IMG/VR virus record: IMGVR_UViG_3300046454_000431
DNA: 64,000 bases
DNA from: an uncultured virus (IMG/VR IMGVR_UViG_3300046454_000431)
Lineage: Duplodnaviria; Heunggongvirae; Uroviricota; Caudoviricetes
Direction: 5' to 3' (one strand)
The notes beneath the pieces were generated by a model. The model ran no database searches. It was not told the origin of the DNA and saw nothing but the letters and a program-made list of their open reading frames with translations. Every line of letters starts with the position of its first letter. The stretch's first letter is position 1. The position numbers and the translations under genes were made by a program. Below are positions 28,934-60,461 of this stretch, one piece after another.

Positions 28934-31468
28934 ATGCCATTGGTGCCGGGCTTGCCCCTGAACATCCGCCAGACCAATGGCGGCGCCCCGCCGGCCATTT
29001 CTCCGGGCGTCTCCATCCAGCATGACGTTCACGAGCCTCCCGGCGTCCCCGAAATGGACGACGCCGGCGCTGTCATCAAGATCGAGCATGCCGACGGCAG
29101 CGTCACTGTCTCGCTTGATGGCAAATCGCTGGTCGATAAGCCAGAGCAGAACACAGGCTGGTTCGCCAACCTGGCCGAAAAGCTTCCGGAAGACGATCTG
29201 AGCGGCATTGCCGACGATTTGCTGCGCGGGATCGACGAGGATCTGACCAGCCGCAACGACTGGATCGAAGAGCGCGCCCAGGGCATCAAGCTGCTCGGCC
29301 TCAAGATCGAGATCCCCAATTTGCAGTCGGCGGCGGACGGCGCCCCGGTGGACGGCATGTCAAAAGTGCGGCATCCGCTGCTGCAGGAGGCGGTGCTCCG
29401 CTTTCAAGCCAACTGCCGCTCCGAAATGCTGCCCACCGACGGGCCGATCAAGATCCGCGATGACGGCAGCAACTCCAATCTCCCTCGTGACGCACTGGCG
29501 ACCGCCCTTGAAAAAGACCTCAATCATTATCTCACTGTCACTGCGACCGAATACTATCCCGACACCGACAAGATGTTCCTTCTGCTGGGCTTTGGCGGCA
29601 CGGCATTCAAGAAAGTGTACAACTGCCCGCTGCGTAATCGGCCAGTTTCTGAATCGGTTGACGCCAACGACCTCATCGTCAACGACGCCGCCACCGACCT
29701 CGCCAACGCCAAGCGTGTTACCCATCGATCTATGATGCGGCCCTCGACGGTCAGGCGCATGCAGATAATCGGCGCCTATCGCGACATCGACCTCGATACG
29801 CCCAAGCCGCAGACGCTCGACGCTGCGCAGGAGGCGGCTAAAAACCAGCAAGGGATCCAGACCAACACCACGAGGCCCGACGACCGTGACCGCGAGATCT
29901 ACGAGTGCTATTGCGAACTCGATCTCAAAGGCTACGAGCACAAGTACAAAGGCAAGATTTCGGGCCTTGAGATCCCGTACCGGGTCACCATCGACCTCTC
30001 CAGCCGCAAAATCCTCTCGGTCGTCAGAAACTACGATGAGGACACGAAGGAGCTTCCTGAAGCTAGAGAGACATTCGTCAAATATACCTACGTACCGGGC
30101 CTCGGCTTCTACGATATCGGACTCCTTCATATATTGGGCAATACCACCAACGCTGTTACTGCTGCTTGGCGCGAGTTGCTGGACGCTGGAATGTTTAACA
30201 ACTTTCCCGGCTTTCTCATGGCTGATACGGGAGCCAGACAGAACACGAATATCTTCCGCGTACCGCCGGGCGGCGGCGTCCTCGTCAAGACGGGCGGTCT
30301 TCCCATCAATCAGGCGATTATGCCACTTCCTTACCAGCCGCCGTCTCAAGCTCTGATGGCCCTGGTCGATAACATGGTGCAGACCGGCCAGCGCAGCGGC
30401 GGCACCGCCGAACTGCCGGCCAACGAAGGCAAGGCCGAAATCCCCGTCGGCACCATCCTGGCGATGATCGAGCAGGCCCAGAAGGTGCTGAACAACGTCC
30501 ACAAGCGCATGCACTCGGCGCAATCGCAGGAATTTCGCCTGCTGATACGCTGCTTCAAGGAGAACCCCAAGGCGTTCTGGCAGCGCAACAAGAAGCCGTC
30601 CGCGCCGTGGGACGAGCAGAACTTCCGCGCCGCGCTCGATCAGGCCGACCTGACCCCGCAGGCCGATCCGAATACGTCGAGCCATGGCCAGCGCGTGATG
30701 AAGATCATGGCGCTCAAGCAGTTGCAGCAGCAAAACCCCAGTCTCTACGACCCCATCGCCATCGATACGGCGGCGCTGCAGGCGCTGGGCTGGAACAATC
30801 CGCAGCAATTCATGGCGCCGCCGAGCGCCCAGGCCGCGCCTCCCCCGCAACTCATCCAGCAGCAGGCTGAGACGGCGGCGAAGACCCTCACCTCGCAGGC
30901 GGCGATGGTCACCGCCCAGGCGCGGGCCAAGGAGGCCGGCGCCCGCGCCATGAACCTGATGGCGGAAGCCCAGACCATGGGCATGGACGAAACCGGCCAG
31001 ATCCAGCAGGACACGCCGGTCGATCAGCACCGCGCCGAATCGGAGCGCATCAAGGCCAACGCGCATGCGCAGCAGGCCGACACTCACCAATCCGTCATGC
31101 AGGCCAAGTCCCAGGCCGACCTGCTGAACGCCCAGACGCGGGCCAAGGAAATCCAATTGAAGCTGGGCGAACTGTCGATGAAGGATTCGCACCACGACGA
31201 CGAGCAGCGCCTCAAGGCGAGGCAGAGCGCCGTCGATATGGCCAAGCAGGTCATGGACACCCGTGCCGAAGACCAGCGCACCGCCGCCGAGATCCATCAC
31301 GATCACACCATACTGAGCCGCGAGCAGGAGCACGATCACGCGATCACCGAAAAGACCCACGCGCATGAGAAGGAATTGGAGGGCGTGAAGAAAGCGGCGG
31401 CTATCGCGGTCGCTAAAGCCAAACCGAAACCCAAGCCTGCAGCCGCCAAGCCAAAGGCCAAGAAATGA
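28934..31468 (+). CDS. Portal protein with a long C-terminal helical extension
   Basis: Follows terL; HPLLQEAV.RFQA, GTAFKKVY, GFYDIGLLH and AMIEQAQKV..VHKRMH; Q/A-rich coiled coil. Confidence 0.85.
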   Translation: MPLVPGLPLNIRQTNGGAPPAISPGVSIQHDVHEPPGVPEMDDAGAVIKIEHADGSVTVSLDGKSLVDKPEQNTGWFANLAEKLPEDDLSGIADDLLRGIDEDLTSRNDWIEERAQGIKLLGLKIEIPNLQSAADGAPVDGMSKVRHPLLQEAVLRFQANCRSEMLPTDGPIKIRDDGSNSNLPRDALATALEKDLNHYLTVTATEYYPDTDKMFLLLGFGGTAFKKVYNCPLRNRPVSESVDANDLIVNDAATDLANAKRVTHRSMMRPSTVRRMQIIGAYRDIDLDTPKPQTLDAAQEAAKNQQGIQTNTTRPDDRDREIYECYCELDLKGYEHKYKGKISGLEIPYRVTIDLSSRKILSVVRNYDEDTKELPEARETFVKYTYVPGLGFYDIGLLHILGNTTNAVTAAWRELLDAGMFNNFPGFLMADTGARQNTNIFRVPPGGGVLVKTGGLPINQAIMPLPYQPPSQALMALVDNMVQTGQRSGGTAELPANEGKAEIPVGTILAMIEQAQKVLNNVHKRMHSAQSQEFRLLIRCFKENPKAFWQRNKKPSAPWDEQNFRAALDQADLTPQADPNTSSHGQRVMKIMALKQLQQQNPSLYDPIAIDTAALQALGWNNPQQFMAPPSAQAAPPPQLIQQQAETAAKTLTSQAAMVTAQARAKEAGARAMNLMAEAQTMGMDETGQIQQDTPVDQHRAESERIKANAHAQQADTHQSVMQAKSQADLLNAQTRAKEIQLKLGELSMKDSHHDDEQRLKARQSAVDMAKQVMDTRAEDQRTAAEIHHDHTILSREQEHDHAITEKTHAHEKELEGVKKAAAIAVAKAKPKPKPAAAKPKAKK

Positions 31469-33681
31469 ACGAGCGCGCGAAAGCCCTTGGCTTCGATCCG
31501 TCGCAGACGTGGTTTCACGGCTCAACTAAGGATCTGCCGGCTTTCGCCGCCAAGCGCGCTCCGCGCAGCGAGCAAATGGGCCTGGAAGGCGTTCACCTTG
31601 CGCAAAATCCGGATTTTGCCTCCCATTACGCCGAAGGGCCTGGCGGCAACGTCACGCCAGTTCATGTGCGCGGCAATATTCTCGACGCCACCCAGCTTAT
31701 CCCCGAAGGCGGCGAGCATCACGCCATTCTCGATAAGCTGCTGAAGGGAACAGGCCGCAAGCCATACTGGAACTCTGATGAGCAGGGGCGTCGATTCGCC
31801 CCGCCGCTTCAGGGTCATATCGACGCCGTCAGCCCGCAAAAGGCCAAGCGCGTCATCCAGGAACACGGCTACGACGGCGTCAAATACGATGCTCGATACG
31901 GATCATTGCAGCCTGGAGGCCGCAGCGCGAGCATTTCAAACAAAAGCCCCGCAGTGGTGATGTTCGACCCATCGAATATCCGGGCCAGGACTGCACAATT
32001 CGACCCCCAGCAAGCAGGGAGCGCGGAACTAATGGCATCGAGAGGCGGTAAGGCGATCCACTCTGCGCTCCTGACGGCCAAGAGCCTTTATGACAAGCTG
32101 CCGCATGTCGTCGGCGGCGGGGCGCCGATGGCCAAGGGCGGCGCTGCGCTGGCGCCGATTCCCCAGATCATCATGCCGGGCGATCACCCGGCCCGCATCG
32201 ACACCCGGCTGGCGACCGGGGCCAAGCCGCTCGATCTGGGGCCAGGGCCGCGCACCGTCAACATGGCTGCGTTGCGGGCGACGCCGGCGCTGTTCGACAA
32301 GAACGTCGATATCCTGCGGCACTACCCGAATGTTTCGAAAAGGGCGGCGAAGCTGTCGAACCCGGATATGGCCGAGCATTTCATCAATCACGTCAAGGAC
32401 AACCTGCTGTGGCTGCACGATCAGGTGCCCAACGAAACCCGGCAGCGGTCCAAATTGTGGTACGACGGCGCCAACAAGCTGGCCAAGGAGTGGGCGCAAA
32501 AATACGGCGTCTCGGAGGCGTCCGCCGCCGGCGCGCTGGCCGCGCTGTCGCCGCAGAAGGACTGGTTTCAGAACGTGTCGCTGGCCGAGCGCGTCCTGCA
32601 TGCGATGAAGGGGCGCGGCAATAACGCATATCATGGTGAAACCTTTTCGCCTGAAATGGAGGGCACCTATCGCGGCCTGGACAAGCTGGCCACCGAGAAG
32701 AACGAGCCAATCTTCCAGGCGATCAGGGGCAAGTCGCTGGGCGACATCGACGACATGAAGCACATTCCCGGCGACGAGCGCGCGGTCATGAAGGCGCTGT
32801 GGATCCGGATGCACGATCAGACCCACGGCGATCCCGGCTACAAGATCGCCACGCCGGAAGGTCATTTTGGCGAGGTCGCCCGGAACGCCGACGGATCGCC
32901 ATCGAGGGCGGGCTGGGGTTCGCTGGGCGAAATCGGCAAGGCGGTGCAGGCCATCGAGAGCAATGGCGATCCGACCTTCATGAACCGCCTGATGGGCGAG
33001 CGCCACAAGGTTCGCAATTTCTACAATAACATCCTCGATCCCAACTCCCAGCACGGCGACGTCACCATCGACACCCATGCGGTCGCCGCCGGCCTGCTGC
33101 GCGCGCTGTCGGGCAATTCGCTTGAGGTGGCGCACAATTTCAGCAACTACGCCGGCAAGGGCGTTCCCGGCGCCGGCGGCTCCAACGCCACCGGCGTGAA
33201 CGGAACCTATCCGCTCTACGCCGACGCCTATCGCCAAGCCGCCAAAGAGCGCGGTATACTGCCGCGCGAAATGCAATCGATTACGTGGGAGGCGATCAGA
33301 GGATTGTTCCCCGACACCTTCAAAACTGATAAAAACAACGCCCATATCGACAGCATCTGGAACGACTACAAGAACGGAAAGAAGGGAATCGACGATGTCC
33401 GCAAAGAAATCCACGACTTCGCGGGGGGCATCCGGCCACCGGAGTGGCACGACACCTCTGGAACGCCTGATGCACCGGTTCGGGGTGCCAGTGGACCGGG
33501 ACTCGTACCTGGCCCTGGATCACGCGGGCCAGCCCCCCAAGGAATTATCGGCGGAACAGGAAATGGACCTCCCGGAGCACCTGCGCCGCAAGCACCCCGG
33601 CAGTCGGGGCTGATCCTGCCGCCAGGTTATGCCTGCGGCGGCATGATCGACAAAGCATTGGCCGCGACACGGCCCCGGTAA
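31465..33681 (+). CDS. ADP-ribosyltransferase-like (ART-PolyVal type) domain fused to an HhH-GPD glycosylase-like domain
   Basis: N-terminal WFHGS, ASHYA, GYDGV and FDPSNIR; C-terminal WY, ALSPQ, KVRNFYNNI, VTIDTHA and QSITW. Confidence 0.65.
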   Translation: MNERAKALGFDPSQTWFHGSTKDLPAFAAKRAPRSEQMGLEGVHLAQNPDFASHYAEGPGGNVTPVHVRGNILDATQLIPEGGEHHAILDKLLKGTGRKPYWNSDEQGRRFAPPLQGHIDAVSPQKAKRVIQEHGYDGVKYDARYGSLQPGGRSASISNKSPAVVMFDPSNIRARTAQFDPQQAGSAELMASRGGKAIHSALLTAKSLYDKLPHVVGGGAPMAKGGAALAPIPQIIMPGDHPARIDTRLATGAKPLDLGPGPRTVNMAALRATPALFDKNVDILRHYPNVSKRAAKLSNPDMAEHFINHVKDNLLWLHDQVPNETRQRSKLWYDGANKLAKEWAQKYGVSEASAAGALAALSPQKDWFQNVSLAERVLHAMKGRGNNAYHGETFSPEMEGTYRGLDKLATEKNEPIFQAIRGKSLGDIDDMKHIPGDERAVMKALWIRMHDQTHGDPGYKIATPEGHFGEVARNADGSPSRAGWGSLGEIGKAVQAIESNGDPTFMNRLMGERHKVRNFYNNILDPNSQHGDVTIDTHAVAAGLLRALSGNSLEVAHNFSNYAGKGVPGAGGSNATGVNGTYPLYADAYRQAAKERGILPREMQSITWEAIRGLFPDTFKTDKNNAHIDSIWNDYKNGKKGIDDVRKEIHDFAGGIRPPEWHDTSGTPDAPVRGASGPGLVPGPGSRGPAPQGIIGGTGNGPPGAPAPQAPRQSGLILPPGYACGGMIDKALAATRPR

Positions 33682-33716
33682 CCTGATACGGTGATTTAGC
33701 TAGAAGGATGACGCCG

Positions 33717-34013: not shown

Positions 34014-35294
34014 ATGTCCGAACAAGCCAAAACATACCGCGCCGCGATGCGGGCTAAGGCCGAGCGTTTGGGGACGGCCACGTCCGCAGGCAAAGTCGAT
34101 TGCAGCGATTTCGGCCCTGTCGAGCAGGATCCAATTCACGCCGATAAGCAGGAGGGCCTGCGACCCGTCTCCAGGCGAGCGTATAAGAGCGGCGGCGCCG
34201 TCATGGGCGCGGCGGCTTTCAAGCATGGCGGGCGCGTTGCGCGCAAGGGCGGGGGCGCGGCCAACGCCAGTTCCATGTTCGGCAACGCCATCTACAATAG
34301 CGACGTCAAGGAAGCCAACGAGAAGCGCGACGGCTACGTCAAGCGTGAAGGCGGCATGAAGAAAGGCGGCAGGACCGGCAGATTTGGCGGCGGCGGCAAT
34401 GGCCCGATTGGCGGCCAGACTGCTGTCAACAATCAGGCGGCTGCGAACGCCATGCAGGCCATCGACGCCAACAATAGAGTCGGCGGCAACGTGCCGACCA
34501 ACGCCTTGGGCGTTTCGGCGGGCAGTGGCAGCGGCCATATGTTCGGCATGGCGAAGGGCGGTCACCCGCACAAGGCCGAAGACGAGAAATGCGCCAAGAA
34601 GCTGGTCGCACACCACAAGGCCGACGGCGGACCGATCCCGTCGCCGGCGGACGCCGGTCCGCCTCCCGGCCCGCCCGAAGCTTCACCTTCCGGAACGGAC
34701 CAGGATTCGGGCAAGCTGGATGCGCTGATCAGCGCGCTGGAGCACCAGCATAAAAAGTCGAAGAAGCACAAGGCGCCGCCGATGCCGCCTCCGGGTGCTG
34801 ATGATGAGGCCGGCCCGCCCCCCGATGAGCAGGCCGGCCCGCCTCCAGGCCTCGGCGCCAAGCGCGGCGGCAAGGCCCGCAAGGAAGGCGGCGGCGTCTA
34901 CGCCCCCAACATCAAGCTCGGCCCGCGCGACGGTTACGCCAAGGGCGGCAAGACCAAGGGCAGGACGAACATCAATATTGTCATTGGGCAACCTGGCGGC
35001 GCCTCTCCTCCCGATGCTGGCGGACCTCCTCCCCTGGCCGGGCCGCCGCCGGGGCCGGGGGCGGTTCCTGTGCCGCCTCCCGCGCCCCCGCCCCCGCCGA
35101 TGGCTGGACCTCCAGGCATGCAGGGACCGCCGGGCGCGCCCCCGCCGATGCCGATGCCGCCTCCGGGCGGGCCGATGGGCCGCAAGCATGGCGGTCGAGC
35201 CTATCCGATTGACGATGGATCGGGCGGCGGCAAAGGCCGTCTGCAGAAGATCAGGTCTTATGGCCTGGTTCCAGCCAAAGGAGGTGGGAAGTGA
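34014..35294 (+). CDS. Gly/Lys/Pro-rich low-complexity late protein with many KxGG motifs
   Basis: GAGGA RBS; YKSGG, FKHGG, MKKGG, MAKGG, KADGG, AKRGG, YAKGG and RKHGG. Confidence 0.75.
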   Translation: MSEQAKTYRAAMRAKAERLGTATSAGKVDCSDFGPVEQDPIHADKQEGLRPVSRRAYKSGGAVMGAAAFKHGGRVARKGGGAANASSMFGNAIYNSDVKEANEKRDGYVKREGGMKKGGRTGRFGGGGNGPIGGQTAVNNQAAANAMQAIDANNRVGGNVPTNALGVSAGSGSGHMFGMAKGGHPHKAEDEKCAKKLVAHHKADGGPIPSPADAGPPPGPPEASPSGTDQDSGKLDALISALEHQHKKSKKHKAPPMPPPGADDEAGPPPDEQAGPPPGLGAKRGGKARKEGGGVYAPNIKLGPRDGYAKGGKTKGRTNINIVIGQPGGASPPDAGGPPPLAGPPPGPGAVPVPPPAPPPPPMAGPPGMQGPPGAPPPMPMPPPGGPMGRKHGGRAYPIDDGSGGGKGRLQKIRSYGLVPAKGGGK

Positions 35295-35560
35295 GCTTCG
35301 AAAAGTCTGTTGTCGATCACGCGCTTGTTGTCGCTTTGGGGATCCTCCTCCTGCTGTTCGCTTTTGCCGGCTTTGTCATTTCGGCTCGTGCTCAGTCTAT
35401 CGAGATTGGGCCAGGCGGCGTTGCGGTAAGTCCTGGCCGCGAGCGCGGCTGGGGCGGGCAGTGCGAGGAACTGCGGCGCGCTTGCGAATACAAGGAAGAG
35501 CGCGGCGAGGAAGGTTACGGCAACTGCCGTCGCTATCGCCGCTTCTGCCAAGGCAGGTAA
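35291..35560 (+). CDS. Small exported four-Cys protein
   Basis: Hydrophobic leader ending ARA; CEELRRAC...GNCRRYRRFC. Confidence 0.7.
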   Translation: MSFEKSVVDHALVVALGILLLLFAFAGFVISARAQSIEIGPGGVAVSPGRERGWGGQCEELRRACEYKEERGEEGYGNCRRYRRFCQGR

Positions 35561-35578
35561 TCAAATAGGAGAAAGTTG

Positions 35579-36268: not shown

Positions 36269-36275
36269 AAACACA

Positions 36276-36312
36276 GAGGGCCGCTTCCAGTACATCCGTG
36301 GAAGCGGCCCTC
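36276..36312. other. 14-bp perfect hairpin without a U-tail
   Basis: GAGGGCCGCTTCCA-9nt-TGGAAGCGGCCCTC. Confidence 0.7.
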
Positions 36313-36373
36313 ATACCCTCGGTCGTCACCTTGAGCTTGTCTTACATCAGGAACAAATCAGGTTCAAGCCCTA

Positions 36374-36586: not shown

Positions 36587-36643
36587 ATCCTATTGTCAGC
36601 GCACTGACAGTGTGCGAGTAATTGCGTGTCACAGGAGACGCGC

Positions 36644-40662: not shown

Positions 40663-40905
40663 ATGGGCAAGTTTGAGAAGGGCAAGAAGCCTGCTTTCGG
40701 CGGCGGCAACGAGGATGTTAAGGAAGAGGCTGAAGAGAAGGGCGGCAAGAAAAAGCGTGTAGGCGGGCCGGTTGGCGCGTCTGCTCACTCGCACGGTGGT
40801 CGAGCGGCTCGCAAGAGCGGCGGCGCCTGCGAGAGCCACCTGTTCTCGTCAGCCGCTGCGGGTACGCATGCGCCTGGGCGGAAGCTGATGTCGAAGAAGG
40901 ATTGA
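40663..40905 (+). CDS. Small Lys/Gly-rich protein with xxGG motifs
   Basis: KRVGG, HSHGG and RKSGG; local similarity to 34014..35294. Confidence 0.65.
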   Translation: MGKFEKGKKPAFGGGNEDVKEEAEEKGGKKKRVGGPVGASAHSHGGRAARKSGGACESHLFSSAAAGTHAPGRKLMSKKD

Positions 40906-52052: not shown

Positions 52053-54239
52053 ATGCCGCACCAGGTTCTCAAAGTCCAGCCCGGCGTCAACACCAACGAG
52101 ACGCCTGTCCTGAACATGGCCGGCATTTCGGAATGCGACAAAATCCGCTTCAGGCAAGATCCAGCCGGCTTGGGCCTGGTCGAGAAGCTGGGCGGCTGGA
52201 CGCGCTTCTACACCGGCGTTTTCGATTACGCCGTGCGCCATCTCTTCGTGTGGCAGGAAATCGACATCGACAAGTTCGTGGCTGTCGGGATGGCTGGCCT
52301 GGGCGGCGTCGAGCTTTTGCGGGCGCAGGATGAGCTTAATCCGATCACCGGTCTGCCCACGGGTTTCTCGACAGCGACGCCCAGCGGCGCCCTGCCTCTC
52401 ACGCCGCTGTTCAGGAATACGGACGCTCCGAACACTACGATCCTGGTTTCGACCGTGGCCGGCAGTCCGTTCGTCTCCATAACCGATCCATCGCTCGACC
52501 AGATCCACACCACGGATTCGGTCTATTTCGCCACCCATGTCGCCGTCGGCGGCCTTGTCCTGTTCGGGCAATATGCGGTCTACGCGACGACGTCTTTCAC
52601 CAGCTATCAGATCGTCGCGCGCACGGTGCTCGGCGCGCCGCAGGCGGCATCTACGACTGCGGGTTCGACAACCGCTGTTCCGCCGCTCTTCACCACGGCG
52701 ACCAACAGTTATGAAATTACTGTCACGCTGCCGAAACACGGCTACGTGGTTGGTGATGTCTTCCCGCTGCTGATCGCCACCGCCGTCGCCAACATCACGC
52801 TCGCGCCGCGCGAGTACGAGATCCAGCGGATCACCGACGTGGATCACTTCGTCATCCTGGCGAACGAGATCGCGACGTCAGGCGCGTCGGCCTATCCGAA
52901 CGGCGGCAACTTCCGCCTGATTTATAATATCGGCGGCGCCCCCAGCAACATCATCAGCGGCTACGGCGCCGGCATTTACGGCGGCACGGCTGGAGACGGC
53001 GGCTATGGCCGAAACAGTGGCGGCGCGCCGACAGCGCCAGGAACGCCGGCCTCGGCCACGGATTGGAACTTCGACAACTGGGGCAGCATCCTGCTCGCCA
53101 GCCCCAGGAACGCCGTCGTCGATGGCATTCCGGTGTCTGGCATCTACCAGTGGGAGGATGAGACAGGCGCCAAGGTGCTCGCGGTGATCGCGGAGGCGCC
53201 GCCTTGCAATGATGGCTTTTTCGTCGGCATGCCGCAGCGCCAGATTATCACTTGGGGTTCCAGCTTCACCGGCATCCCAGACCCGCTGCTCGTCCGCTGG
53301 TGCGACGTCAACGATTACACCGTTTGGGCGGCGACGATCACCAACCAGGCCGGATCTTACCGCATCCCGAAAGGCTCCAAGATCGTCGGCGCCCTCCAGG
53401 CCGCGCAGCAAGGCATCCTCTGGACCGATATCGGCGTCTGGTCGATGCAGTATATCGGCCAGCCCTACATCTACAGCTTCAATGAACTCGGCACTGGCTG
53501 CGGCATGCTTGCGCAGAAGGGGGCGGGGGCGGTCAATGGCGTGGTCTACTGGATCAGCCACCGCCAGTTCTTCATGCTGTCGGGGGCCGGCGTTCAACCA
53601 GTCCCGTGCCCCGTCTGGGACATCGTCTTTCAGAGCATCGACCGCCGTTATTATGACAACGTCCGGGTCGCGCCCAATTCGATGTTCAATGAGATCTCCT
53701 GGTTCTTCACCTCGGTCAATTCCCCAAATCACGAGAACGATTCCTACGTCAAGTTCAACTACGTGCTGAACGCCTGGGACTACGGCACGATTGCCCGCTC
53801 GGCATGGGTCAACCAAAGCGTCCTCGGCTCTCCGATGGGCGCGGGCGTCAGCCCGGAGGATGGTCAGATCCGCCTGTTCCAGCATGAGCGGACGCCCGAC
53901 GCCGACGGTCAGCCAATGCACTCGTGGTTTGCGACCGGCTATTTTGCGATGGCGGAAGGCGACAGCAAGATTTTCGTCGATGAGATCTGGCCCGACATGA
54001 AGTGGGGCGCCTATGGCGTCACCAAGAATGCGACGGTCGATCTGACGTTCACGGCCAAGGATTTTCCCGCTCAAGACCCGCTGATGACGAACAGTTTTTC
54101 CTTCACGGTGGGATCGACTTACGTCACGCCGCGCCTTCGCGGGCGCTTGATGCAGGTGACCCTTGGGAGCAATGATCGCGGATCGTTCTGGCGCCTCGGC
54201 GGCATGCGGTATCGCGCAGCGCCAGACGGGAAATACTGA
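52053..54239 (+). CDS. Tail nozzle / P22 gp10-like stabilisation protein (putative)
   Basis: RFR...EKLGGW, W.FDNWG, DPLLVRWCD, NQAGS, FNEISWF and WRLG..R....DG. Confidence 0.7.
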   Translation: MPHQVLKVQPGVNTNETPVLNMAGISECDKIRFRQDPAGLGLVEKLGGWTRFYTGVFDYAVRHLFVWQEIDIDKFVAVGMAGLGGVELLRAQDELNPITGLPTGFSTATPSGALPLTPLFRNTDAPNTTILVSTVAGSPFVSITDPSLDQIHTTDSVYFATHVAVGGLVLFGQYAVYATTSFTSYQIVARTVLGAPQAASTTAGSTTAVPPLFTTATNSYEITVTLPKHGYVVGDVFPLLIATAVANITLAPREYEIQRITDVDHFVILANEIATSGASAYPNGGNFRLIYNIGGAPSNIISGYGAGIYGGTAGDGGYGRNSGGAPTAPGTPASATDWNFDNWGSILLASPRNAVVDGIPVSGIYQWEDETGAKVLAVIAEAPPCNDGFFVGMPQRQIITWGSSFTGIPDPLLVRWCDVNDYTVWAATITNQAGSYRIPKGSKIVGALQAAQQGILWTDIGVWSMQYIGQPYIYSFNELGTGCGMLAQKGAGAVNGVVYWISHRQFFMLSGAGVQPVPCPVWDIVFQSIDRRYYDNVRVAPNSMFNEISWFFTSVNSPNHENDSYVKFNYVLNAWDYGTIARSAWVNQSVLGSPMGAGVSPEDGQIRLFQHERTPDADGQPMHSWFATGYFAMAEGDSKIFVDEIWPDMKWGAYGVTKNATVDLTFTAKDFPAQDPLMTNSFSFTVGSTYVTPRLRGRLMQVTLGSNDRGSFWRLGGMRYRAAPDGKY

Positions 54240-54650: not shown

Positions 54651-55340
54651 ATGCCACTGATCAAATCCGGATCCAAGGAGGCCGTCAGCCAGAATATCAG
54701 GACGGAGATCGGCGCCGGCAAGCCGCAGAAACAGGCGGTCGCCATCGCCCTCGATGTCGCGAGGCGCGCACGGGACGCCGGCGGCGGCATGCCGACGCTC
54801 TCAAAACTGGACACGCCGCCTGATGTTCCGAGCACGGTTCACGCGCACCTGTCGGCCAAGGTCCACACCGGCCCGATCCACAGCGCGGTCGCGGGCCGCA
54901 CCGATCACCTGCCCGTCCATGTTCCGAGCGGCAGCTATGTCATTCCCGCCGACGTCGTCAGCGGCATGGGCGAAGGAAACACTAATGCCGGATTCAAGAA
55001 CATCAAGCGGATGTTTGGTGGCCTGCCTCGTGGGGCCGGCGAGCAACCCTATGATCATAAAGGCGGACCTTATGGCGCTGGGTCTGCTCCCTATAACATC
55101 GATCCCAGCAAGCCCTATGGCGAACCGCTACCTAGTGGGCATGCTGCTGGCGGGAAAACCGGTAAGGATGTCAAGGTCGTTGTGGCAGGCGGCGAATACA
55201 CGCTGACGCCTGAAGAGGTGATGGCGGCGGGCGACGGCGACCTGGATCGCGGCCACCGCGTTCTCGATGATTTTGTCAAACAAATGCGCGGCCACATCGT
55301 CAAGACGATGTCAAAGCTGCCTGGACCGAAGCGAGACTAG
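54651..55340 (+). CDS. Stand-alone protein with two copies of the tape-measure-type G(S/E)Y(V/T) domain
   Basis: GRTDHLP...GSYVIPADVVS.MGEG and GGEYTLTPEEV...GDGD..GH..LD; N-terminal MPL..G...NI..E...GKP.KQAVAIAL. Confidence 0.7.
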   Translation: MPLIKSGSKEAVSQNIRTEIGAGKPQKQAVAIALDVARRARDAGGGMPTLSKLDTPPDVPSTVHAHLSAKVHTGPIHSAVAGRTDHLPVHVPSGSYVIPADVVSGMGEGNTNAGFKNIKRMFGGLPRGAGEQPYDHKGGPYGAGSAPYNIDPSKPYGEPLPSGHAAGGKTGKDVKVVVAGGEYTLTPEEVMAAGDGDLDRGHRVLDDFVKQMRGHIVKTMSKLPGPKRD

Positions 55341-55344
55341 AGCA

Positions 55345-55848: not shown

Positions 55849-55853
55849 GCGTC

Positions 55854-58800
55854 ATGGGCGGCAAGACACAGCAGGCTTCGTCTCAGGTCACGATACCGCC
55901 GGAAGTCCTGGCGCGCTATAACGCGGTCAACGCCAATGCGCAGCAAGTGGCGCAAACGCCCTTCCAGCAGTATTCGAGCGATCCGAACGCCTTCGTCGCG
56001 CCGATGACCACGGCCCAGAACATGGGCCTCCAACAGACCGCGAACTATGCCAACGCCGCGCAGCCCGGCTTGCAGACGGCGATGGGCATGACGCAAGGCG
56101 CGATGGGGTCAGCGAATCCGTGGGATCTGAACTCCGATCAGATCAACAAATACATGAACCCGTACACTCAGAACGTCACCAATCAAATGGGCGCTCTGAT
56201 GAACCAGCAGGCCCAGACGGCGCAGTCGGGCCAACTGGGCAACGCCATCAAGACCGGCGCCTTTGGCGGCGACCGCAGCGGCATTGTGGCGGCGAACCTT
56301 CAGCAGCAGAATGCGCTGGCCTATGGCAACGCCATGGCGCCGGTGCTCCAGCAGGGCTACAACACGGCGCTCCAGACCGCCACGGGGCAGCAGGCGCTCG
56401 ATCTGCAAGCGCAGCAGGCCAACCTGGCGCGGCAGATGCAGGGTGCGGGCCAGTACGGCCAATTGGCCGGCGCGCAGCAGCAGGCGGGCCTCGCCGGCGC
56501 GCAGGCGATGATGGGCGCGGGCCAGGTGCAGCAGCAGACCCAGCAAGCGGGCCTCACTTCGCTCTACAATCAATTCCAGCAGCAGCAGTCTTATCCGTTC
56601 CAGACGGCGCAATTCATGGCGAATATTGCGGAGGGCACCGGTTCGCTGTCGGGCCAGACGACGAACTCCACCCAGCAGGCGCCGTTCTTCTCCGACCGCA
56701 AGTTGAAGGAAAACATCAAGCGAATCGGCACCGCCAAGAACGGTCTGCCGATCCACAGCTTCAACTACAAGGATGATCCGGAAAAGCTCACCCGCCTCGG
56801 CTTCATGGCCGACGAGGTCGAGAAGAAACATCCGGAGGCGGTGGGCCTGGCCGGCGGCTATAAGACCGTCGATCACGAGAAGGCGATGAAGAGCGCCGGC
56901 GGCAGCGTCACTGACTTCGACCAGGGTCGAGCCTATGATCGCGGCGGCTTCGACCTCGGCGGCGCTGCCAGCACCTATGACCCGTCCTGGCAGTCTGTCG
57001 CCCAGCGGCACATGGCGGGGTTGCAGGGTCAGCAGCAGGGCAGCGGCAGCACTTTGTACGGCGGCAAGAGCCGTCACGTTCCAACGACGTCTGGCGCTCG
57101 CTACAGCCTGCCGAATGCGCCTGGCATGCCGGCGGCAAAGCCGTCAGGTCTGAACCAGGCTGTCGGAACGGCGCAGGCGACCGTGGGCCTCGGCCAATCG
57201 CTTGGCGACGCCTATAATAAGTACACCGGCAAGGATCAGCCTGCCGCCACGACCACCGCGCCTGCTGCTGGCGGTGCGCCTGCCACGCCTGCCGCGCCTG
57301 TGGTGGCGAACAAAGCGCCTGGCACACCCGATCAACCCGACGTCACATATTTGCGCCGTGGCGGGTTGGCCACCGGCGGCAGCGAGCCTGTCGTCATCGC
57401 TGCGGCGCCGCCTGCCGCCGTCGCTTCATCTCAGGGCCTCGCGGCGCCTGGCGTTGCCGATGTCGTTACGCCGACGGCTCAGTACCAAGAAGGATTGGGC
57501 AAGGCCCAAGATGCGCAAGTGCGCGCGAACGACATTCAGCAGGCTGACCGCGACGCAGCAGCGAAGGCTGGCATGTCGTTCAAGCCCGACTGGGACAATG
57601 GTTTCCTGGCGCAAGCCGATCTGGCCCGTTCGATGGGCGTCTATGGATCGCTGAACGGCTATCACGACCCAACCCATGGCGGGTCGTATCTCGGTTTCGC
57701 GGATGGCGGCGCGGCCAGCACGGATGAATACAAAGCCCCCGATCCGAACGCCACTCAGGACACGACGAAGCAAAACATTCCGGACGTGCATTCAACCTAC
57801 AAGTTGCCCGATCCGCCCAAGCCGCCAGGCGGCAGTGGAAAGAGCGGAGCCGGCCAGGCGCTGGGCGCCGCCAAATCGCTTATGGGCCTCGCTTCCCTCA
57901 TTCCCGGCGTCGGCGCCGTCACTGCTCCCCTTGGCGCCGTAATGGGCGCGGGCGAGGCGTTGGCCGGCGCCAGCGGCGGTCTGATGGTCGCTGGCCGGCG
58001 CCGCAAGCGCAAGGGCCTGGCCGCTGGCGGTCAGGGCGAGGGCGTCGATTACATGAGCGAAGGTGCGCAGGGGCGTACATACGATGACCCAGAGCAGCAA
58101 ACTGCCCTTAATCTGGATCGCATTAAGGATCTTGAGGGCGAGAACAGTCAAACCGGTCTGGGCGGTAAGGGCAATAGCGTAGACAACATGAGCGAGGCCA
58201 ATCAAGGTCGCATGGCCCCGAATGATACAGAAGCGCAAGACGCATGGCGATTGGAGCATATTCCGCGCGAAGATTTGCACAAGGAAGTACCGCCGGAAAG
58301 GTTGGCAAAACTATTCCCGCCGACGCAGGAAACGCCGCCTCCAGGTGTGCTTGGCCCGTGGTCGAGCCAATCCGCGTCTGCTTCTGTTCCTAATTCGGGC
58401 GAGCGGCTGCTCAACACGCAGCCAACTACGCGCGATGCCCAGACTGGCGCGGCGCCGGTCGAAGGGTCTGGTTTCGACAAGCCGCTCAATCTCGGAAGCG
58501 GGCAGCTATATCAAAGGCCACCGGATGTTCCGGCCACGCCTGAACAGGCTGCGGCGGCGAATGCGTTGCGCAGATCTCCTGAAGCTGCCGCGCTTGCAGG
58601 CGCGGAGGAAGCGCGTCAAGGCAAGGCGGCGGATGCTGTAGCACGGGAGAAGGATTATCAGGCGCGTCATGCGCAATCGTGGACGGATTCGCTGACGGGC
58701 GTGAAGCCTGATCTGGCGCCTGAAACACCTGAAGAAGAGAAGGCCCGCTTCGCCCGCTACGATTCGACCACGCCGACGACACGCGAGGAAGCTACTGCTG

Positions 58801-60461
58801 GTCCGATCACGCAGCCTGGTCTTAGGCCGTCAGACGTCGCCGCGCTCGCTGACAAGCCGGCAAATCTCGCGACCGCCACGGCTCCTGCTGCGGTTCAGGC
58901 TGAAGTCCCCGCAACTCACGAAGCGGGCCTGGTGCTTCCGCCCGAAGCCAGAGGCGCGCCGCCTCCAGGGGTGACCGACGCCCGCACGTTCCCGCTGTCG
59001 CCGGCGCCGCTTGGCGGCGATGTCGCGCAGCCTGCGGCTCCTGCCCCCGTTGTGAAGCCTGCGGCCCCTGCGGCTCCCGCAAGGGTGGCGCCGACGCCTG
59101 TGGCGCATCCCGCCGCCGGCGCTGGCGTTGCGCCTGCCGGCGCAGCGGCCAGGGCGCCGACCGACGCCAACGGCAATCCCATCGAGCAGTTCTTTGGGGG
59201 CCTCGGTCGCGGTGTGGGCGATTTCTTCCACGGCGTCGGCAACATCTTCACCGGCGGCGCCCAGCAAGTCGGCAACGTCGTCAACAGCGCGGGCCAGACG
59301 GTCAACAGGGCCGGCCAGGCTGTCGGTAGCGCGGTCAGCAATACAGCCCAGGCTTTCGGCAATGAGATTGGCGGGCGCTACAACGAACTGATGAACGGTT
59401 CGCCAAAGATGATGTCGCCTGGTGGAAGATTTAACGCCCAAGGCGTCGATCCGCGCCTGCTCAATAACATCACGGAAGCTACGAGAGGTCTGCCACAAGG
59501 TTGGCATGCGCAACTCGAATCCGGCTTCCGCAATAACGATCCGCGCCAGCACGGCAAGGGCGCGGCGGTCGATGTCGCGCTCTACAACGAGAAGGGCGAG
59601 AGGCTTGCTAATTACCAAGACCCGACCACCTTCCGCGCCTACGAGAAATTTGCACAGGATTTCAGGGCGGCGCAGCAGCACAACAATCCCGAACTGGACA
59701 AGGCTACGCGCTGGGGCGGCTACTTCAGCGGCAAGGCGGTCCAGCCTGGTCAAAAATACGATGCCGAGCATCCCTACGGCGCCGTCGATCTGATGCACTT
59801 CGACCTCGGCGGGCGGGAAGGCCTCGGCATGCTTGGCGGCTCGTGGGAAGGCGGCATGACAGCGAAGCAGCATGCGCTGTTTCCCGGCGCCACGTCTGTC
59901 GGCATGGGTCAGCGCCCGTCTGGCGGATATCCGACGGCAGTCGCTACCGGCGCCGATGGCTCCAGGACCAGCGCGACGGGGCAGATCCAGCCGGGCTATC
60001 ACAATGGCGTTCAGGGCATCCTCTCGCAGGAGGAATCCTTCCGCGACAAGCCGTACTGGGACAAATCTGCCGGCGGTGGGGGCGCGTGGGCTATTGGCTA
60101 CGGCACTCACCAGATCGCGGGCGCCGACGGCAAGATGCGCCCCGTGCAGCAGGGCGATACCATCACGCCACAAGGCGCCGCGCAGAATATGGTGCAGCGT
60201 CTGCAAACGGAGTTTCTGCCGAGAGCGGTGCAGAAAGTCGGGGGCCTCGATACCTGGCGCGCTCTGCCGCGCAATGTCCGCGACGGCCTCGGCTCGACCA
60301 TTTGGAACTACGGCAACCTGCCTGATCGGGTCGCTTTCGTGATCCGGAATGGCGGCGGTCCCAACGAGATTGCGAACGCGGTGTTGCAACTCGGCGGCAG
60401 GACGGAGGCGGCCCGCGAGCGCCGCGCGCGTGAAGCGGCGCACATTCGTGGTGGAGGTTGA
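55854..60461 (+). CDS. Multidomain ejection/pilot protein: Gln-rich N-terminus, internal S74 domain, M15-like peptidase and lysozyme-like C-terminus
   Basis: SDRKLKENI...GFMADEV (~56690); SGFR...HGKGAAVD...WGG...HFD (~59500-59810); EESFRDKPYWD...WAIGYG (~60030). Confidence 0.75.
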   Translation: MGGKTQQASSQVTIPPEVLARYNAVNANAQQVAQTPFQQYSSDPNAFVAPMTTAQNMGLQQTANYANAAQPGLQTAMGMTQGAMGSANPWDLNSDQINKYMNPYTQNVTNQMGALMNQQAQTAQSGQLGNAIKTGAFGGDRSGIVAANLQQQNALAYGNAMAPVLQQGYNTALQTATGQQALDLQAQQANLARQMQGAGQYGQLAGAQQQAGLAGAQAMMGAGQVQQQTQQAGLTSLYNQFQQQQSYPFQTAQFMANIAEGTGSLSGQTTNSTQQAPFFSDRKLKENIKRIGTAKNGLPIHSFNYKDDPEKLTRLGFMADEVEKKHPEAVGLAGGYKTVDHEKAMKSAGGSVTDFDQGRAYDRGGFDLGGAASTYDPSWQSVAQRHMAGLQGQQQGSGSTLYGGKSRHVPTTSGARYSLPNAPGMPAAKPSGLNQAVGTAQATVGLGQSLGDAYNKYTGKDQPAATTTAPAAGGAPATPAAPVVANKAPGTPDQPDVTYLRRGGLATGGSEPVVIAAAPPAAVASSQGLAAPGVADVVTPTAQYQEGLGKAQDAQVRANDIQQADRDAAAKAGMSFKPDWDNGFLAQADLARSMGVYGSLNGYHDPTHGGSYLGFADGGAASTDEYKAPDPNATQDTTKQNIPDVHSTYKLPDPPKPPGGSGKSGAGQALGAAKSLMGLASLIPGVGAVTAPLGAVMGAGEALAGASGGLMVAGRRRKRKGLAAGGQGEGVDYMSEGAQGRTYDDPEQQTALNLDRIKDLEGENSQTGLGGKGNSVDNMSEANQGRMAPNDTEAQDAWRLEHIPREDLHKEVPPERLAKLFPPTQETPPPGVLGPWSSQSASASVPNSGERLLNTQPTTRDAQTGAAPVEGSGFDKPLNLGSGQLYQRPPDVPATPEQAAAANALRRSPEAAALAGAEEARQGKAADAVAREKDYQARHAQSWTDSLTGVKPDLAPETPEEEKARFARYDSTTPTTREEATAGPITQPGLRPSDVAALADKPANLATATAPAAVQAEVPATHEAGLVLPPEARGAPPPGVTDARTFPLSPAPLGGDVAQPAAPAPVVKPAAPAAPARVAPTPVAHPAAGAGVAPAGAAARAPTDANGNPIEQFFGGLGRGVGDFFHGVGNIFTGGAQQVGNVVNSAGQTVNRAGQAVGSAVSNTAQAFGNEIGGRYNELMNGSPKMMSPGGRFNAQGVDPRLLNNITEATRGLPQGWHAQLESGFRNNDPRQHGKGAAVDVALYNEKGERLANYQDPTTFRAYEKFAQDFRAAQQHNNPELDKATRWGGYFSGKAVQPGQKYDAEHPYGAVDLMHFDLGGREGLGMLGGSWEGGMTAKQHALFPGATSVGMGQRPSGGYPTAVATGADGSRTSATGQIQPGYHNGVQGILSQEESFRDKPYWDKSAGGGGAWAIGYGTHQIAGADGKMRPVQQGDTITPQGAAQNMVQRLQTEFLPRAVQKVGGLDTWRALPRNVRDGLGSTIWNYGNLPDRVAFVIRNGGGPNEIANAVLQLGGRTEAARERRAREAAHIRGGG

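What the first reader, a model, noticed from the sequence alone, without database searches (positions are those of the whole stretch)
31465..60461. Recurrent xxxGG motif at domain boundaries of late proteins plus a stand-alone partner domain: candidate virion polyprotein processing/targeting system
Seen: a 5-aa motif, roughly [YFMLR]-[AKR]-x-G-G, recurs in at least five otherwise unrelated late proteins. These are 31465 (ASRGG, MAKGG, YACGG), 34014 (YKSGG, FKHGG, RKGGG, MKKGG, MAKGG, KADGG, AKRGG, RKEGG, YAKGG, RKHGG), 40663 (KRVGG, HSHGG, RKSGG), 54651 (RDAGG, HAAGG) and 55854 (KSAGG, YDRGG, FDLGG, LRRGG, LATGG, FADGG, GASGG, LAAGG). In 31465 the sites bracket the two enzyme domains. In 54651 each site precedes one copy of a G(S/E)Y(V/T)-type domain. 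A short ALxxA(R/K)-like helix neighbours several sites (IHSALLTAK, IDKALAATR, VAIALDVARR). Known: siphophage tape-measure proteins carry FAxGG followed by a GE(F/Y)V domain near the C-terminus, and lambda gpH is C-terminally processed. I recognise no conventional prohead protease in this window. Inference: xxxGG is a cleavage or packaging tag, reminiscent of ubiquitin-like GG processing, and 54651 is the protease or recognition factor that matures cargo for loading or ejection.
Basis: partly seen in the sequence, partly recalled or inferred. Interest (0 to 1): 0.85.

Follow-up and report, generated by a model that had tools for sequence, protein, structure and literature searches.

The report
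Glycine-glycine connectors in phage-injected modular proteins
A short, directional "basic/aromatic-Ala/Lys-x-Gly-Gly" connector really does mark the joints between modules of this phage's capsid-internal (injected) proteins, but gene 54651 is the empty carrier of that system and shows no sign of being its protease.

Summary
In the window the enrichment is specific to seven predicted internal proteins (15 seen, 3.1 expected) and half of it comes from 34014. Comparative data make the motif real:
- In 120 long relatives of 54651 the motif occurs 489 times against 63.7 expected, and 48 times when read in reverse.
- It sits in disordered linkers and flanks Pfam domains (ART, NUDIX, InPase, GNAT, methyltransferase).
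- It appears only where another module follows.

54651 belongs to a large family with no Pfam model (3108 near-length hits plus 331 longer forms). It has an N-terminal helical hairpin and two repeats that resemble tape-measure C-termini. It acts as a chassis into which cargo cassettes are inserted between connectors. No protease fold, family or catalytic signature was found for it, and no protease gene was recognised in the window.

Cleavage at the connectors is untested but open. Lambda gpH is cut, at an unmapped site by an unknown enzyme, in the Gly-rich stretch that holds FATGG. A second element, a terminal helix tag ([IV]x[KR]ALx..), sits at the ends of three internal proteins.

The parts
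31465..33681 (+). Polyvalent-type internal protein directly after the portal gene. Layout: ART-PolyVal-like module (aa 17-173), connector ASRGG (nt 32035-32049), helix KAIHSALLTAK (32050-32082), connector MAKGG (32128-32142), DUF7178 core (aa ~260-665), connector YACGG (33628-33642), C-terminal helix tag (33643-33678).
   Evidence: Pfam, (DUF7178 100.6 bits; ART 27.7 bits, below the cut-off). Coordinates. AF2 model: core pLDDT above 83, all connectors in segments below 50, helices predicted at 194-211 and 726-733. The sibling genome and L090/L094/L096 lack the ART module and start at the helix.
34014..35294 (+). Gly/Pro/Lys-rich internal protein with 10 connector-type pentamers: aa 57, 69, 77, 110, 115, 179, 202, 289, 308, 390. 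It has a conserved 'connector + KTxxxTNINIVI' strand, a Pro-rich tract and a GGGKGRLQK C-terminal motif.
   Evidence: 10 observed against 1.03 expected, 0 of 1000 shuffles. Eight syntenic homologs carry 3-13 each; 7 of those 8 also have 0 of 1000 shuffles reaching the count. No Pfam, PHROG or NCBIfam hit.
40663..40905 (+). Small (80 aa) basic Gly-rich protein downstream of the capsid gene, with KRVGG, HSHGG and RKSGG.
   Evidence: Coordinates. Syntenic small ORFs in L122 (4 motifs) and L118 (3 motifs). In the window it is not significant on its own (p 0.16).
54651..55340 (+). Cargo-less chassis protein. Layout: helical hairpin (aa 9-42, nt 54675-54776), connector RDAGG (54771-54785), repeat 1 (aa ~68-122, with GSYVIPADVV at 54930-54959), Pro/Tyr/Gly-rich linker, connector HAAGG (55140-55154), repeat 2 (aa ~170-221, with GGEYTLTPEEV at 55188-55220).
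   Evidence: Family size. Invariant columns. AF2 model. Cargo-bearing relatives. N-terminal 1-42 matches phrog_2423 (E 1.1e-19).
55854..60461 (+). Large internal virion/ejection protein. Layout: N-terminal domain, internal Peptidase_S74 chaperone domain (aa 280-330, with FFSDRKLK at nt 56685-56708), conserved connectors KSAGG (56889-56903), YDRGG/FDLGG (56934-56963) and FADGG (57696-57710), long low-complexity region, and a phage lysozyme domain (aa ~1392-1488). The protein ends in ...IRGGG.
   Evidence: Pfam. PHROG 6121/4287. Conservation of GG sites in 14 homologs. Coordinates.
60464..62068 (+). Internal protein with an N-terminal helix tag VVAKALPVAR (aa 31-40, nt 60554-60583).
   Evidence: The tag is kept only in 3 close relatives of the 11 examined.
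62075..64000 (+). Internal protein that runs off the window. Its C-terminus (record position 133369, 180 nt beyond the window end) carries the helix tag ..AVAKALHVA.. at aa 691 of 702.

Best explanation
The window is the late region of an SU10-like podophage. A set of its capsid-internal, presumably ejected, proteins are built as beads on a string. Independently folding modules are joined by disordered linkers that carry a short directional connector.

The connector reads [F/Y/M/R/K]-[A/K/R]-x-G-G. It is most often [R/K]-A-x-G-G in the 54651 family and [F/Y]-[A/K]-x-G-G-x-[V/I] in the DUF7178 and 34014 families.

54651 is the minimal, cargo-less member of a very large uncharacterised family. 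It has an N-terminal helical hairpin and two strand-turn-strand-helix repeats of the kind found at tape-measure-protein C-termini. The family serves as a delivery chassis. Effector cassettes (ADP-ribosyltransferase, NUDIX, pyrophosphatase, GNAT, methyltransferase, a ~45-aa mini-domain) sit between the hairpin and the core, or between the two repeats. Each cassette is bounded by a connector.

Most likely mechanism (inferred): the connector is a helix-capping, flexible joint that keeps modules structurally independent. That would let them be packed, threaded unfolded through the portal/tail channel and refolded, and it delimits exchangeable cassettes. I treat cutting at the joint as a separate, open question with odds of about 0.3.

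A second element is a terminal amphipathic helix tag ([I/V]-x-[K/R]-A-L-x-h-[T/A/V]) at the extreme ends of 31465, 60464 and 62075. It is the better candidate for a docking or packaging signal.

Shown: the position, directionality, conservation and cassette context of the connector, and the lack of any protease signature in 54651.
Inferred: virion location, ejection, and the roles in threading and docking.
For: 1. Directional excess.
- 120 long 54651 homologs: 489 hits against 63.7 by shuffling. The reversed motif gives 48. [RK]AxGG gives 311 forward against 10 reversed.
- 120 near-length homologs: 213 forward against 20 reversed.
- 36 DUF7178 ORFs: 59 against 11.
- Logo: Arg 3.7x at -3, Ala 3.4x (37%) at -2, Arg 3.5x at -6.

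2. Junction position.
- In L099 the order is ART(50-195) | 3 motifs | unknown | motif | unknown | motif | DUF7178 | KARGG(1239-1243) | InPase(1251-1385) | terminal helix.
- Of 12 Pfam envelopes in 10 cargo-bearing homologs, 1 contains an [AKR]xGG. The nearest flanking motifs lie 2-34 aa upstream in 9 of 10 cases that have one, and 5-25 aa downstream in 7 of 12.
- 80 of 100 long homologs have [AKR]xGG within 40 aa upstream of the core, most commonly 6 aa before it.

3. The motif appears only where another module follows.
- Of 37 distinct hairpin ORFs, the 32 of 45-60 aa have none, and the 5 longest (67-302 aa) all have it.
- Single-module DUF7178 homologs start with the helix tag and no GG. The 6 multi-module ones have a motif 5-40 aa before the core.

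4. Cassette exchange.
- The same mini-cassette (GLYANI...TA) lies between connectors in 54651 homologs (P0095, P0127, P0134), in 34014 homologs (L102, L108) and in a hairpin protein (L029).
- The ART module of 31465 is absent from the ~85% identical sibling genome, with the breakpoint at the connector.

5. Disorder. The connectors lie in segments with pLDDT below 50 in both AF2 models, yet G44, G167 and G168 are invariant in 64 sequences.

6. Co-occurrence. The family is present in 3 of 3 near-complete records that have motif-rich proteins. It is absent from 5 of 5 near-complete ~33 kb records of the other DUF7178 clade.

7. Tape-measure link. The Caulobacter phage GB2A tape-measure C-terminus and the F116 gp58 N-terminus carry the same module after MARGG or before FADGG.

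8. Helix tag. 3 observed against 0.13 expected, 0 of 2000 shuffles, all within 40 aa of a terminus of an internal protein.
Against: - Inside the window alone the signal is thin outside 34014.
- The motif definitions and the helix regex were refined after seeing the data.
- The homologs are related, so the counts are not independent events. Only 63 of 120 long homologs individually exceed all 200 shuffles.
- 20 of 100 long homologs lack [AKR]xGG just before the core.
- A compact 168-aa family member has no second connector, so that connector is not obligatory.
- A plain flexible joint would not be expected to need such a specific sequence, which favours recognition by a partner or a protease.
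- The co-occurrence result is confounded with phylogeny, because it compares two clades.
- Virion location and ejection rest on synteny and family names (SU10 portal/adaptor, 'internal virion protein', lysozyme domain), not on data for this phage.
- The tape-measure homology is weak statistically: hhalign E 0.044 with probability 1.2%, and tblastn E 0.6.
Confidence: 0.5

Rival explanations
1. The connectors are proteolytic release sites (cut after Gly-Gly). Cuts would free cargo enzymes and chop 34014 into small basic peptides, either during maturation or after ejection. The enzyme would be an unrecognised phage protease or a host protease. This would be the same processing that turns lambda gpH into gpH* plus gpHC.
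For: - The motif is sequence-specific and directional and lies in disordered linkers.
- Both ends of each cargo cassette carry it.
- Lambda gpH is cut in the Gly-rich region that holds SAIGG, GAVGG, SASGG and FATGG. C-terminal fragments from those positions would be 12.2-14.6 kDa, against the reported ~14 kDa. The site and the enzyme are unknown (passages of PMC12617516).
- The literature on polymorphic toxins and polyvalent proteins expects pre-toxin processing sites or releasing peptidases (passages of PMC3482391; PMC5512222).
- From recall, not tested here: adenovirus, ASFV and ubiquitin-like proteases cut after GG.
Against: - No protease family was found in the 64 window ORFs.
- None appears in the precomputed Pfam lists of the 120 long homologs.
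- The motif also ends proteins, where nothing is left to remove: 55854 ends ...IRGGG, 34014 ends ...AKGGGK, and gpH ends ...SGGGR.
- The helix-cap reading explains the R/K-A preference without an enzyme.
- There are no proteomic data.
Confidence: 0.3
2. The connector, alone or with the adjacent helix, is a docking or packaging tag. It would be bound by the portal, scaffold or capsid interior, or by the tail channel, to load cargo into the procapsid or to order its ejection.
For: - Helix tags sit at the extreme termini of three internal proteins and at both ends of single-module DUF7178 homologs.
- The lambda gpH C-terminal helix (residues 818-842) docks on the gpI trimer in the tail tip (passages of PMC10721106).
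- The hairpin's second helix resembles the tag.
Against: - No partner was identified.
- The 60464 tag is kept in only 3 of 11 relatives.
- There are up to 13 connectors per protein, and connectors internal to long proteins are more than a tag needs.
- The ~50-aa hairpin proteins also occur outside virion gene modules, for example in T7-like Klebsiella phages in the early/middle region.
Confidence: 0.12
3. 54651 is the protease or recognition factor that acts on GG-tagged proteins. It might use its invariant His, Ser and Asp residues, in cis or in trans.
For: - The core is very strongly conserved, with invariant S78, D85, H86, D101, S104, H202 and D206.
- A cargo-less copy is retained in most genomes, 3108 near-length against 331 long forms, so the core has a function of its own.
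- It always accompanies motif-rich proteins in the complete records checked.
Against: - No protease family, fold or solved relative was found.
- The His and Ser positions are not conserved in the tape-measure and F116 versions of the module.
- In the AF2 model the protein's own connector is not packed against the domain (pLDDT below 50 at 166-169).
- Its genome position and its cargo fusions fit a structural or ejection chassis.
Confidence: 0.06
4. There is no functional motif. The pentamers would be a by-product of Gly/Ala/Lys/Arg-rich low-complexity linkers in a 61% GC genome.
For: Plain GG counts are near the composition expectation (170 against 147.5).
Against: The forward-to-reverse asymmetry is 10- to 30-fold within the same local composition. 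The glycines are invariant inside otherwise variable disordered segments. The motif is tied to the presence of a following module.
Confidence: 0.03

Closest known systems
Polyvalent proteins of phages and conjugative elements (Iyer, Burroughs, Anand, de Souza, Aravind 2017; PMC5512222, passages read)
   Same: Multi-domain effector proteins encoded beside the portal/terminase genes and predicted to be packaged and injected. The same Pfam cargo families occur here and in the relatives: ART-PolyVal, InPase and LPD23.
   Different: The chassis found here (hairpin plus tape-measure-like repeats) has no Pfam model. The words 'linker' and 'glycine' do not occur in that paper's main text, so the connector motif does not appear to be described there. 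The window's own ART hit is below Pfam's cut-off.
MuF/SPP1 gp7-type head proteins fused to polymorphic toxins, and pre-toxin boundary motifs of polymorphic toxins (Zhang et al. 2012; PMC3482391, passages read)
   Same: A conserved virion-associated carrier with variable C-terminal or inserted effector cassettes. There is a conserved element at the carrier/cassette boundary, and cassettes are exchanged by recombination.
   Different: No MuF domain is present here. The boundary element is a 5-6 residue GG motif repeated at every joint, not a pre-toxin domain. No releasing peptidase was found.
Tape-measure protein C-terminal region, e.g. lambda gpH to gpH* + gpHC
   Same: h-A-x-G-G is followed within ~6-15 aa by a strand-turn(G-E/S-F/Y-V)-strand-helix unit, then another AxGG and a terminal helix. 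The protein leaves the virion ahead of the DNA. It is cut in the Gly-rich region (PMC12617516, passages).
   Different: This is a podophage with no tail tube to measure. The statistical support for homology is weak. The lambda cleavage site is unmapped, so the equivalence of site and motif is conjecture.
Podophage ejection / internal core proteins (T7 gp14-16, P22 gp7/16/20, cyanophage A4 gp26-29; PMC12002296, passages read)
   Same: Gene position after the nozzle/tail genes, a large protein with a lysozyme domain (55854), and predicted storage inside the capsid followed by ejection.
   Different: No sequence relationship was shown. The modular cargo-insertion architecture and the connector motif are not features reported in the passages read.
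GG-X virion polyprotein processing by adenain / ASFV pS273R / ubiquitin-like proteases (recalled, no call)
   Same: A small residue followed by Gly-Gly at module boundaries of virion core proteins. Processing would yield small basic peptides.
   Different: No clan-CE-like or other protease was recognised here. Cleavage has not been shown. The resemblance comes from memory and is a lead only.

Membership tests
Polyvalent proteins (Iyer et al. 2017) | Two or more effector-type domains in one polypeptide | tested here: met
   31465 has DUF7178 at 100.6 bits plus ART-PolyVal at E 5.3e-6, though at 27.7 bits that is below the 31.2 cut-off. Homologs L099 and L119 carry ART at 60 and 44 bits, and L099 carries InPase at 154 bits.
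Polyvalent proteins (Iyer et al. 2017) | Encoded in a phage packaging/late context | tested here: met
   The gene starts at the stop codon of the SU10-type portal gene. The same order holds in the relatives.
Polyvalent proteins (Iyer et al. 2017) | Physically packaged and injected | not testable with these tools
   No proteomic or injection data exist for this metagenomic phage.
Tape-measure C-terminal module (lambda gpH type) | Significant sequence or profile similarity to a tape-measure C-terminus | tested here: inconclusive
   hhalign of A1 against gpH gives one hit, at the GEFV unit, with E 0.044 and probability 1.2%. tblastn to the Caulobacter GB2A tape measure gives E 0.6. The motif order matches by eye.
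Tape-measure C-terminal module (lambda gpH type) | Part of a long tail-length ruler protein | tested here: not met
   54651 is 229 aa in a podophage with an SU10-type adaptor/nozzle gene set.
Prohead / virion maturation protease (claim made for 54651) | Match to a known protease family or fold | tested here: inconclusive
   No Pfam or NCBIfam hit, and the only PHROG hits are families of unknown function. No PDB sequence hit. Best Foldseek E = 3. Best VIA Z 4.5, over the hairpin only. An absent match does not exclude a new protease.
Prohead / virion maturation protease (claim made for 54651) | Catalytic residues conserved across the whole module superfamily | tested here: not met
   H86 and S78, invariant in the 64 family members, are replaced in the GB2A tape-measure and F116 gp58 versions.
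GG-specific polyprotein processing system | A cognate protease gene in the genome | tested here: inconclusive
   None was recognised among 64 ORFs by Pfam, nor among the late ORFs by PHROGs or NCBIfam. The weak RVP hit of 37892 (E 0.044, below cut-off) lacks D[ST]G in 6 homologs.
GG-specific polyprotein processing system | Demonstrated cleavage after GG | not testable with these tools
   This needs terminomics or intact-mass data.
Peptidase_S74 intramolecular chaperone (55854, aa 280-330) | Pfam match above the cut-off with Ser...Lys in the cleavage motif | tested here: met
   30.7-32.9 bits against a cut-off of 22. The S-x4-K pattern in FFSDRKLK matches that of the two fibre genes. The role of the dyad is recalled, not tested.
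Peptidase_S74 intramolecular chaperone (55854, aa 280-330) | Located at the C-terminal end of a fibre/spike and released after folding | tested here: not met
   About 1200 residues follow it in 55854. PHROG 6121 relatives of ~392 aa end with it.

The most novel reading that the evidence does not exclude
The [R/K/F/Y]-A/K-x-G-G connectors are true cleavage sites of a phage 'cargo polyprotein' system. Effector enzymes and small basic peptides would be released from a tape-measure-like chassis, inside the capsid or in the newly infected cell, by a GG-specific activity that is not yet recognised. That activity might reside in the conserved chassis core itself. The same chemistry would generate lambda gpH*/gpHC, whose cleavage site and enzyme have remained unknown since the 1970s.
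Probability: 0.25. Interest if true: 0.85.

Novelty: new variant of a known kind. Interest (0 to 1): 0.6.

Why it matters
If correct, this defines a very common but unannotated delivery chassis for phage-injected effectors. The family has more than 3400 clusters at 90% identity and no Pfam or NCBIfam model; only its first 42 residues match a PHROG family of unknown function. It also gives a simple sequence rule, the connector, for locating the boundaries of cargo modules in metagenomic phages. That rule helps to mine anti-defence and host-takeover enzymes. The work ties podophage internal proteins to tape-measure C-termini. It also turns an old open question, where and how lambda gpH is cut, into a directly testable prediction: a cut after one of the GG pairs between residues 706 and 737. 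The terminal helix tag is a candidate packaging or docking signal that could be used to load foreign proteins into capsids.

Tried and rejected
- Complex prediction, 54651 core (aa 68-229, alignment A1) against 34014 aa 45-125: no answer, score 0.02 against the 0.32 mark. This is not used as evidence either way.
- Fold searches of the 54651 model and of the 31465 model gave nothing significant. A PDB sequence search with the A1 profile gave only a chance ribosomal hit, E 0.079.
- ESM Atlas returned only viral hypothetical clusters. The nearest named cluster was 'crAss cargo protein 1' at 0.77, which is chance level and was not pursued.
- The weak retroviral-aspartyl-protease hit of 37892 (E 0.044) was rejected, because there is no D[ST]G in the 6-sequence alignment.
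- The search of earlier findings by words, by sequence and by genome returned nothing.
- Literature searches for a described GG connector or for GG processing in phage virion proteins found no such description. This covers only the held open-access library.
- Shuffling within whole proteins does not control for local composition, so I added the reversed-motif control.
- The idea that the connector is part of the hairpin domain was rejected, because stand-alone hairpins lack it.
- The idea that the second connector is essential to repeat 2 was rejected, because a compact homolog lacks it.
- Not used: the search of protein representatives, sequencing-run tools and RNA-model tools.


Full report
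**What the window is.** All clear genes lie on the + strand. Pfam and PHROGs identify the following late genes:
- an SU10-type portal (28934-31468)
- a major capsid protein (39249-40163)
- an SU10-type adaptor (41985-42668)
- two fibre genes with C-terminal Peptidase_S74 domains
- an endolysin
- a nozzle-like 'virion structural protein' (52053-54239)
- a 1535-aa protein (55854-60461) with 'DNA ejection / virion structural protein' PHROG hits, an internal S74 domain and a phage-lysozyme domain

Early genes include a helicase, a nuclease, DNA polymerase A, a C5 methylase, terminase and two Tad2-like ORFs. The host record is 138 kb and consists of two related ~69 kb genomes (~85% nt identity) joined head to tail. 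This gives a natural sibling for comparison.

**Check of the observation.** All 26 pentamers and the three helix examples exist where stated.

With 500 composition-preserving shuffles per protein, the strict motif is enriched over the 27 late proteins: 16 against 5.4, with 0 of 500 shuffles reaching 16. Half of the hits are in 34014. Taken singly, the other proteins are weak or null: 31465 p 0.086, 55854 p 0.022, 40663 p 0.16, and 54651 with no strict hit. GG dipeptides as such are about as frequent as Gly content predicts.

So in the window the signal exists, is confined to the internal proteins, and is modest outside 34014.

**Comparative evidence makes the motif real.** I fetched relatives of 54651 and of 31465 from viral contigs and from the protein collection.
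- *Abundance.* In 120 long relatives of 54651 the motif [FYMKRHLW][AKR]xGG occurs 489 times against 63.7 expected.
- *Directionality.* The reversed pattern occurs 48 times. For [RK]AxGG the counts are 311 forward and 10 reversed. This control keeps local composition.
- *34014 family.* Every one of 9 syntenic members has 3-13 motifs against about 1 expected, and 8 of the 9 have 0 of 1000 shuffles reaching the count.
- *Caveats.* The homologs are related, so these are not independent events. The patterns were refined after seeing data. Only 63 of the 120 long homologs individually beat all 200 shuffles.

**Position of the motif.** It sits at module joints.
- In L099 the order is ART-PolyVal, three motifs, an unknown module, a motif, another module, a motif, the DUF7178 core, KARGG, InPase, and a terminal helix.
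- Among 12 Pfam envelopes in 10 cargo-bearing 54651 relatives, one contains an [AKR]xGG. Flanking motifs usually lie within a few to ~30 residues.
- In the AF2 models the connectors of 54651 and 31465 fall in segments with pLDDT below 50 that bracket confidently folded parts. Even so, G44, G167 and G168 of 54651 are invariant and A165 is at least 90% conserved in 64 homologs.
- The motif appears only when another module follows. Of 37 distinct ORFs that begin with the hairpin, the 32 of 45-60 aa lack it and the 5 longest have it.
- Single-module DUF7178 proteins lack it, while six multi-module ones have it just before the core.

**What 54651 is.** It has 3108 near-length relatives at E <= 1e-3 and 331 longer ones at E <= 1e-10. 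None carries a Pfam annotation for the shared part. It has no NCBIfam hit, and its only clear PHROG hit covers the first 42 residues (phrog_2423, unknown function).

The model shows three parts:
- a two-helix hairpin (aa 9-42)
- a disordered stretch after the first GG
- two strand-turn-strand-helix repeats (aa 86-122 and 173-221), separated by a Pro/Tyr/Gly-rich linker that ends in HAAGG

The longer relatives keep the hairpin and the repeats. Between them they insert ART-PolyVal, InPase, NUDIX, GNAT, methyltransferase, DUF6098, GP88-like and unassigned modules, in proteins of up to 1724 aa. Each module is bounded by connectors such as ARATGG, TAKAGG, IARAGG and KRAEGG. The window's copy is therefore the empty chassis of a cargo-delivery family and does not stand alone as a partner domain for GG-tagged proteins.

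**Cassette exchange.** The same ~45-aa mini-cassette (GLYANI...) occurs between connectors in this family, in 34014 relatives and in a hairpin protein. In L102 and L108 it is flanked by a direct repeat of a GG-bounded 17-aa unit. The ART module of 31465 is missing from the sibling genome and from L090/L094/L096, with the breakpoint at the ASRGG connector.

**Is 54651 a protease?** I found nothing to say so.
- There is no family hit, no solved relative by profile and no fold match.
- The His and Ser residues invariant in the family are not kept in the tape-measure and F116 versions of the module.
- No protease family was recognised in any of the 64 ORFs scanned. A sub-threshold retroviral-protease hit of 37892 lacks the catalytic motif.
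- Absence of a match does not exclude a new enzyme, and the strong conservation of the cargo-less core shows that it has a function of its own.

**Link to tape-measure proteins.**
- Lambda gpH has FATGG at 733-737, the GEFVF unit about 15 residues later, YATGG at 778-782 and a terminal helix.
- The Caulobacter phage GB2A tape measure ends with MARGG followed by the same module. F116 gp58 starts with two such units followed by FADGG.
- Statistical support is weak: hhalign E 0.044 with probability 1.2%.
- Passages of PMC12617516 state that a ~14 kDa fragment is cut from the Gly-rich region near the gpH C-terminus, that it stays in the particle, and that neither the site nor the enzyme is known.
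- Cuts after the four GG pairs between residues 706 and 737 would give fragments of 12.2-14.6 kDa.
- Passages of PMC10721106 place gpH residues 818-842 as a helix docked on gpI in the tail tip.

**A second element.** A helix tag [IV]x[KR]ALx[LIVA][TAV] lies at aa 728 of 738 in 31465, aa 32 of 534 in 60464 and aa 691 of 702 in 62075. That is 3 observed against 0.13 expected, with 0 of 2000 shuffles reaching 3; the regex was chosen post hoc. Similar helices sit at both ends of single-module DUF7178 homologs. The 60464 tag is conserved only in 3 of 11 relatives.

**Co-occurrence.** The 54651 family is present in 3 of 3 near-complete records whose neighbours are motif-rich. It is absent from 5 of 5 near-complete ~33 kb records of a DUF7178 clade. 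Three of those five were inspected, and they lack the motif and the 34014-like gene. Two fragmentary records are uninformative. This comparison covers two clades, so it is confounded with phylogeny.

**Interpretation.** What is shown is a directional connector at module joints of predicted internal proteins, a widespread cargo chassis, and cassette exchange at the connectors. Virion location, ejection and the connector's role are inferred.
- I favour (0.5) a helix-capping flexible joint that keeps modules independent for packing and threading and that delimits cassettes.
- The cleavage-site reading (0.3) is the main rival. Its support is the motif's specificity, the cassette flanking and the lambda precedent. 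Against it are the lack of any protease and the motif's occurrence at protein ends.
- A docking role (0.12) fits the helix tags better than the GG motif.
- A pure composition artefact is disfavoured (0.03).

**Novelty.** Polyvalent injected proteins and MuF-fused toxins are known kinds (PMC5512222, PMC3482391, passages read). This chassis and its connector are not in Pfam, NCBIfam or the passages I read, and five library searches found no description. I rate it a new variant of a known kind. Supplementary files of these papers were not consulted.

Noticed in passing
window 35671-35865 (within the gap 35560-36626): A tandem DNA array of a 30-nt unit x6.4 (93-nt super-unit x2.1) lies inside a ~1 kb stretch of the head module with no convincing ORF. 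There is no Rfam family at gathering score.
   Followed up: partly
window 56685-56903 (55854 aa 278-350): A Peptidase_S74 intramolecular-chaperone domain with the S-x4-K motif sits inside the large internal virion protein, not at a fibre C-terminus, and is immediately followed by a conserved connector (KSAGG). If it self-cleaves as in fibres, it would split the protein into a ~280-aa piece and a ~1250-aa piece.
   Followed up: partly
window 27000-27587 and 27584-27922: Two adjacent ORFs with Tad2-like (Thoeris anti-defence 2) domains lie just upstream of the portal region (E 3.4e-13 and 1.5e-22).
   Followed up: no
window 36626-37030: A GroES/Cpn10-like ORF (Pfam E 8.5e-5; phrog_3188) lies in the head-assembly module, upstream of the putative scaffold (37036-37881).
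   Followed up: no
whole record G000 (window = 69190-133189): The 138 kb record is two related ~69 kb phage genomes (77-94% nt identity in aligned blocks) joined head to tail. It is probably an assembly of two co-occurring strains. The window differs from the laid file at 16 positions.
   Followed up: partly
L102 9434-11080 and L108 9434-11347 (34014 homologs): The mini-cassette GLYANI...TA is flanked by a direct repeat of a GG-bounded Cys/His-rich 17-aa unit (56-57 of 72 nt identical between copies). This looks like a footprint of cassette insertion by duplication at connectors.
   Followed up: partly
window 37892-38473: A conserved 193-aa head-module protein between the scaffold and capsid genes has invariant W-x-Y-E-W-K and G-W-E..R-H-P motifs in 6 homologs and no family assignment.
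   Followed up: partly
window 32182-33460 (31465 aa ~260-665): The DUF7178 core is an all-helical, confidently modelled domain (pLDDT above 83) with many invariant polar residues (H514, K515, R517, N518, D536, H538, H557) and no fold match in the PDB. It is probably an enzyme of unknown activity.
   Followed up: partly
L028-L081 (viral contigs); Klebsiella, Ralstonia and Enterobacter T7-like phages: The N-terminal hairpin of 54651 is very common as a stand-alone ~50-aa basic protein, also outside virion gene modules. Its own function is unknown.
   Followed up: no
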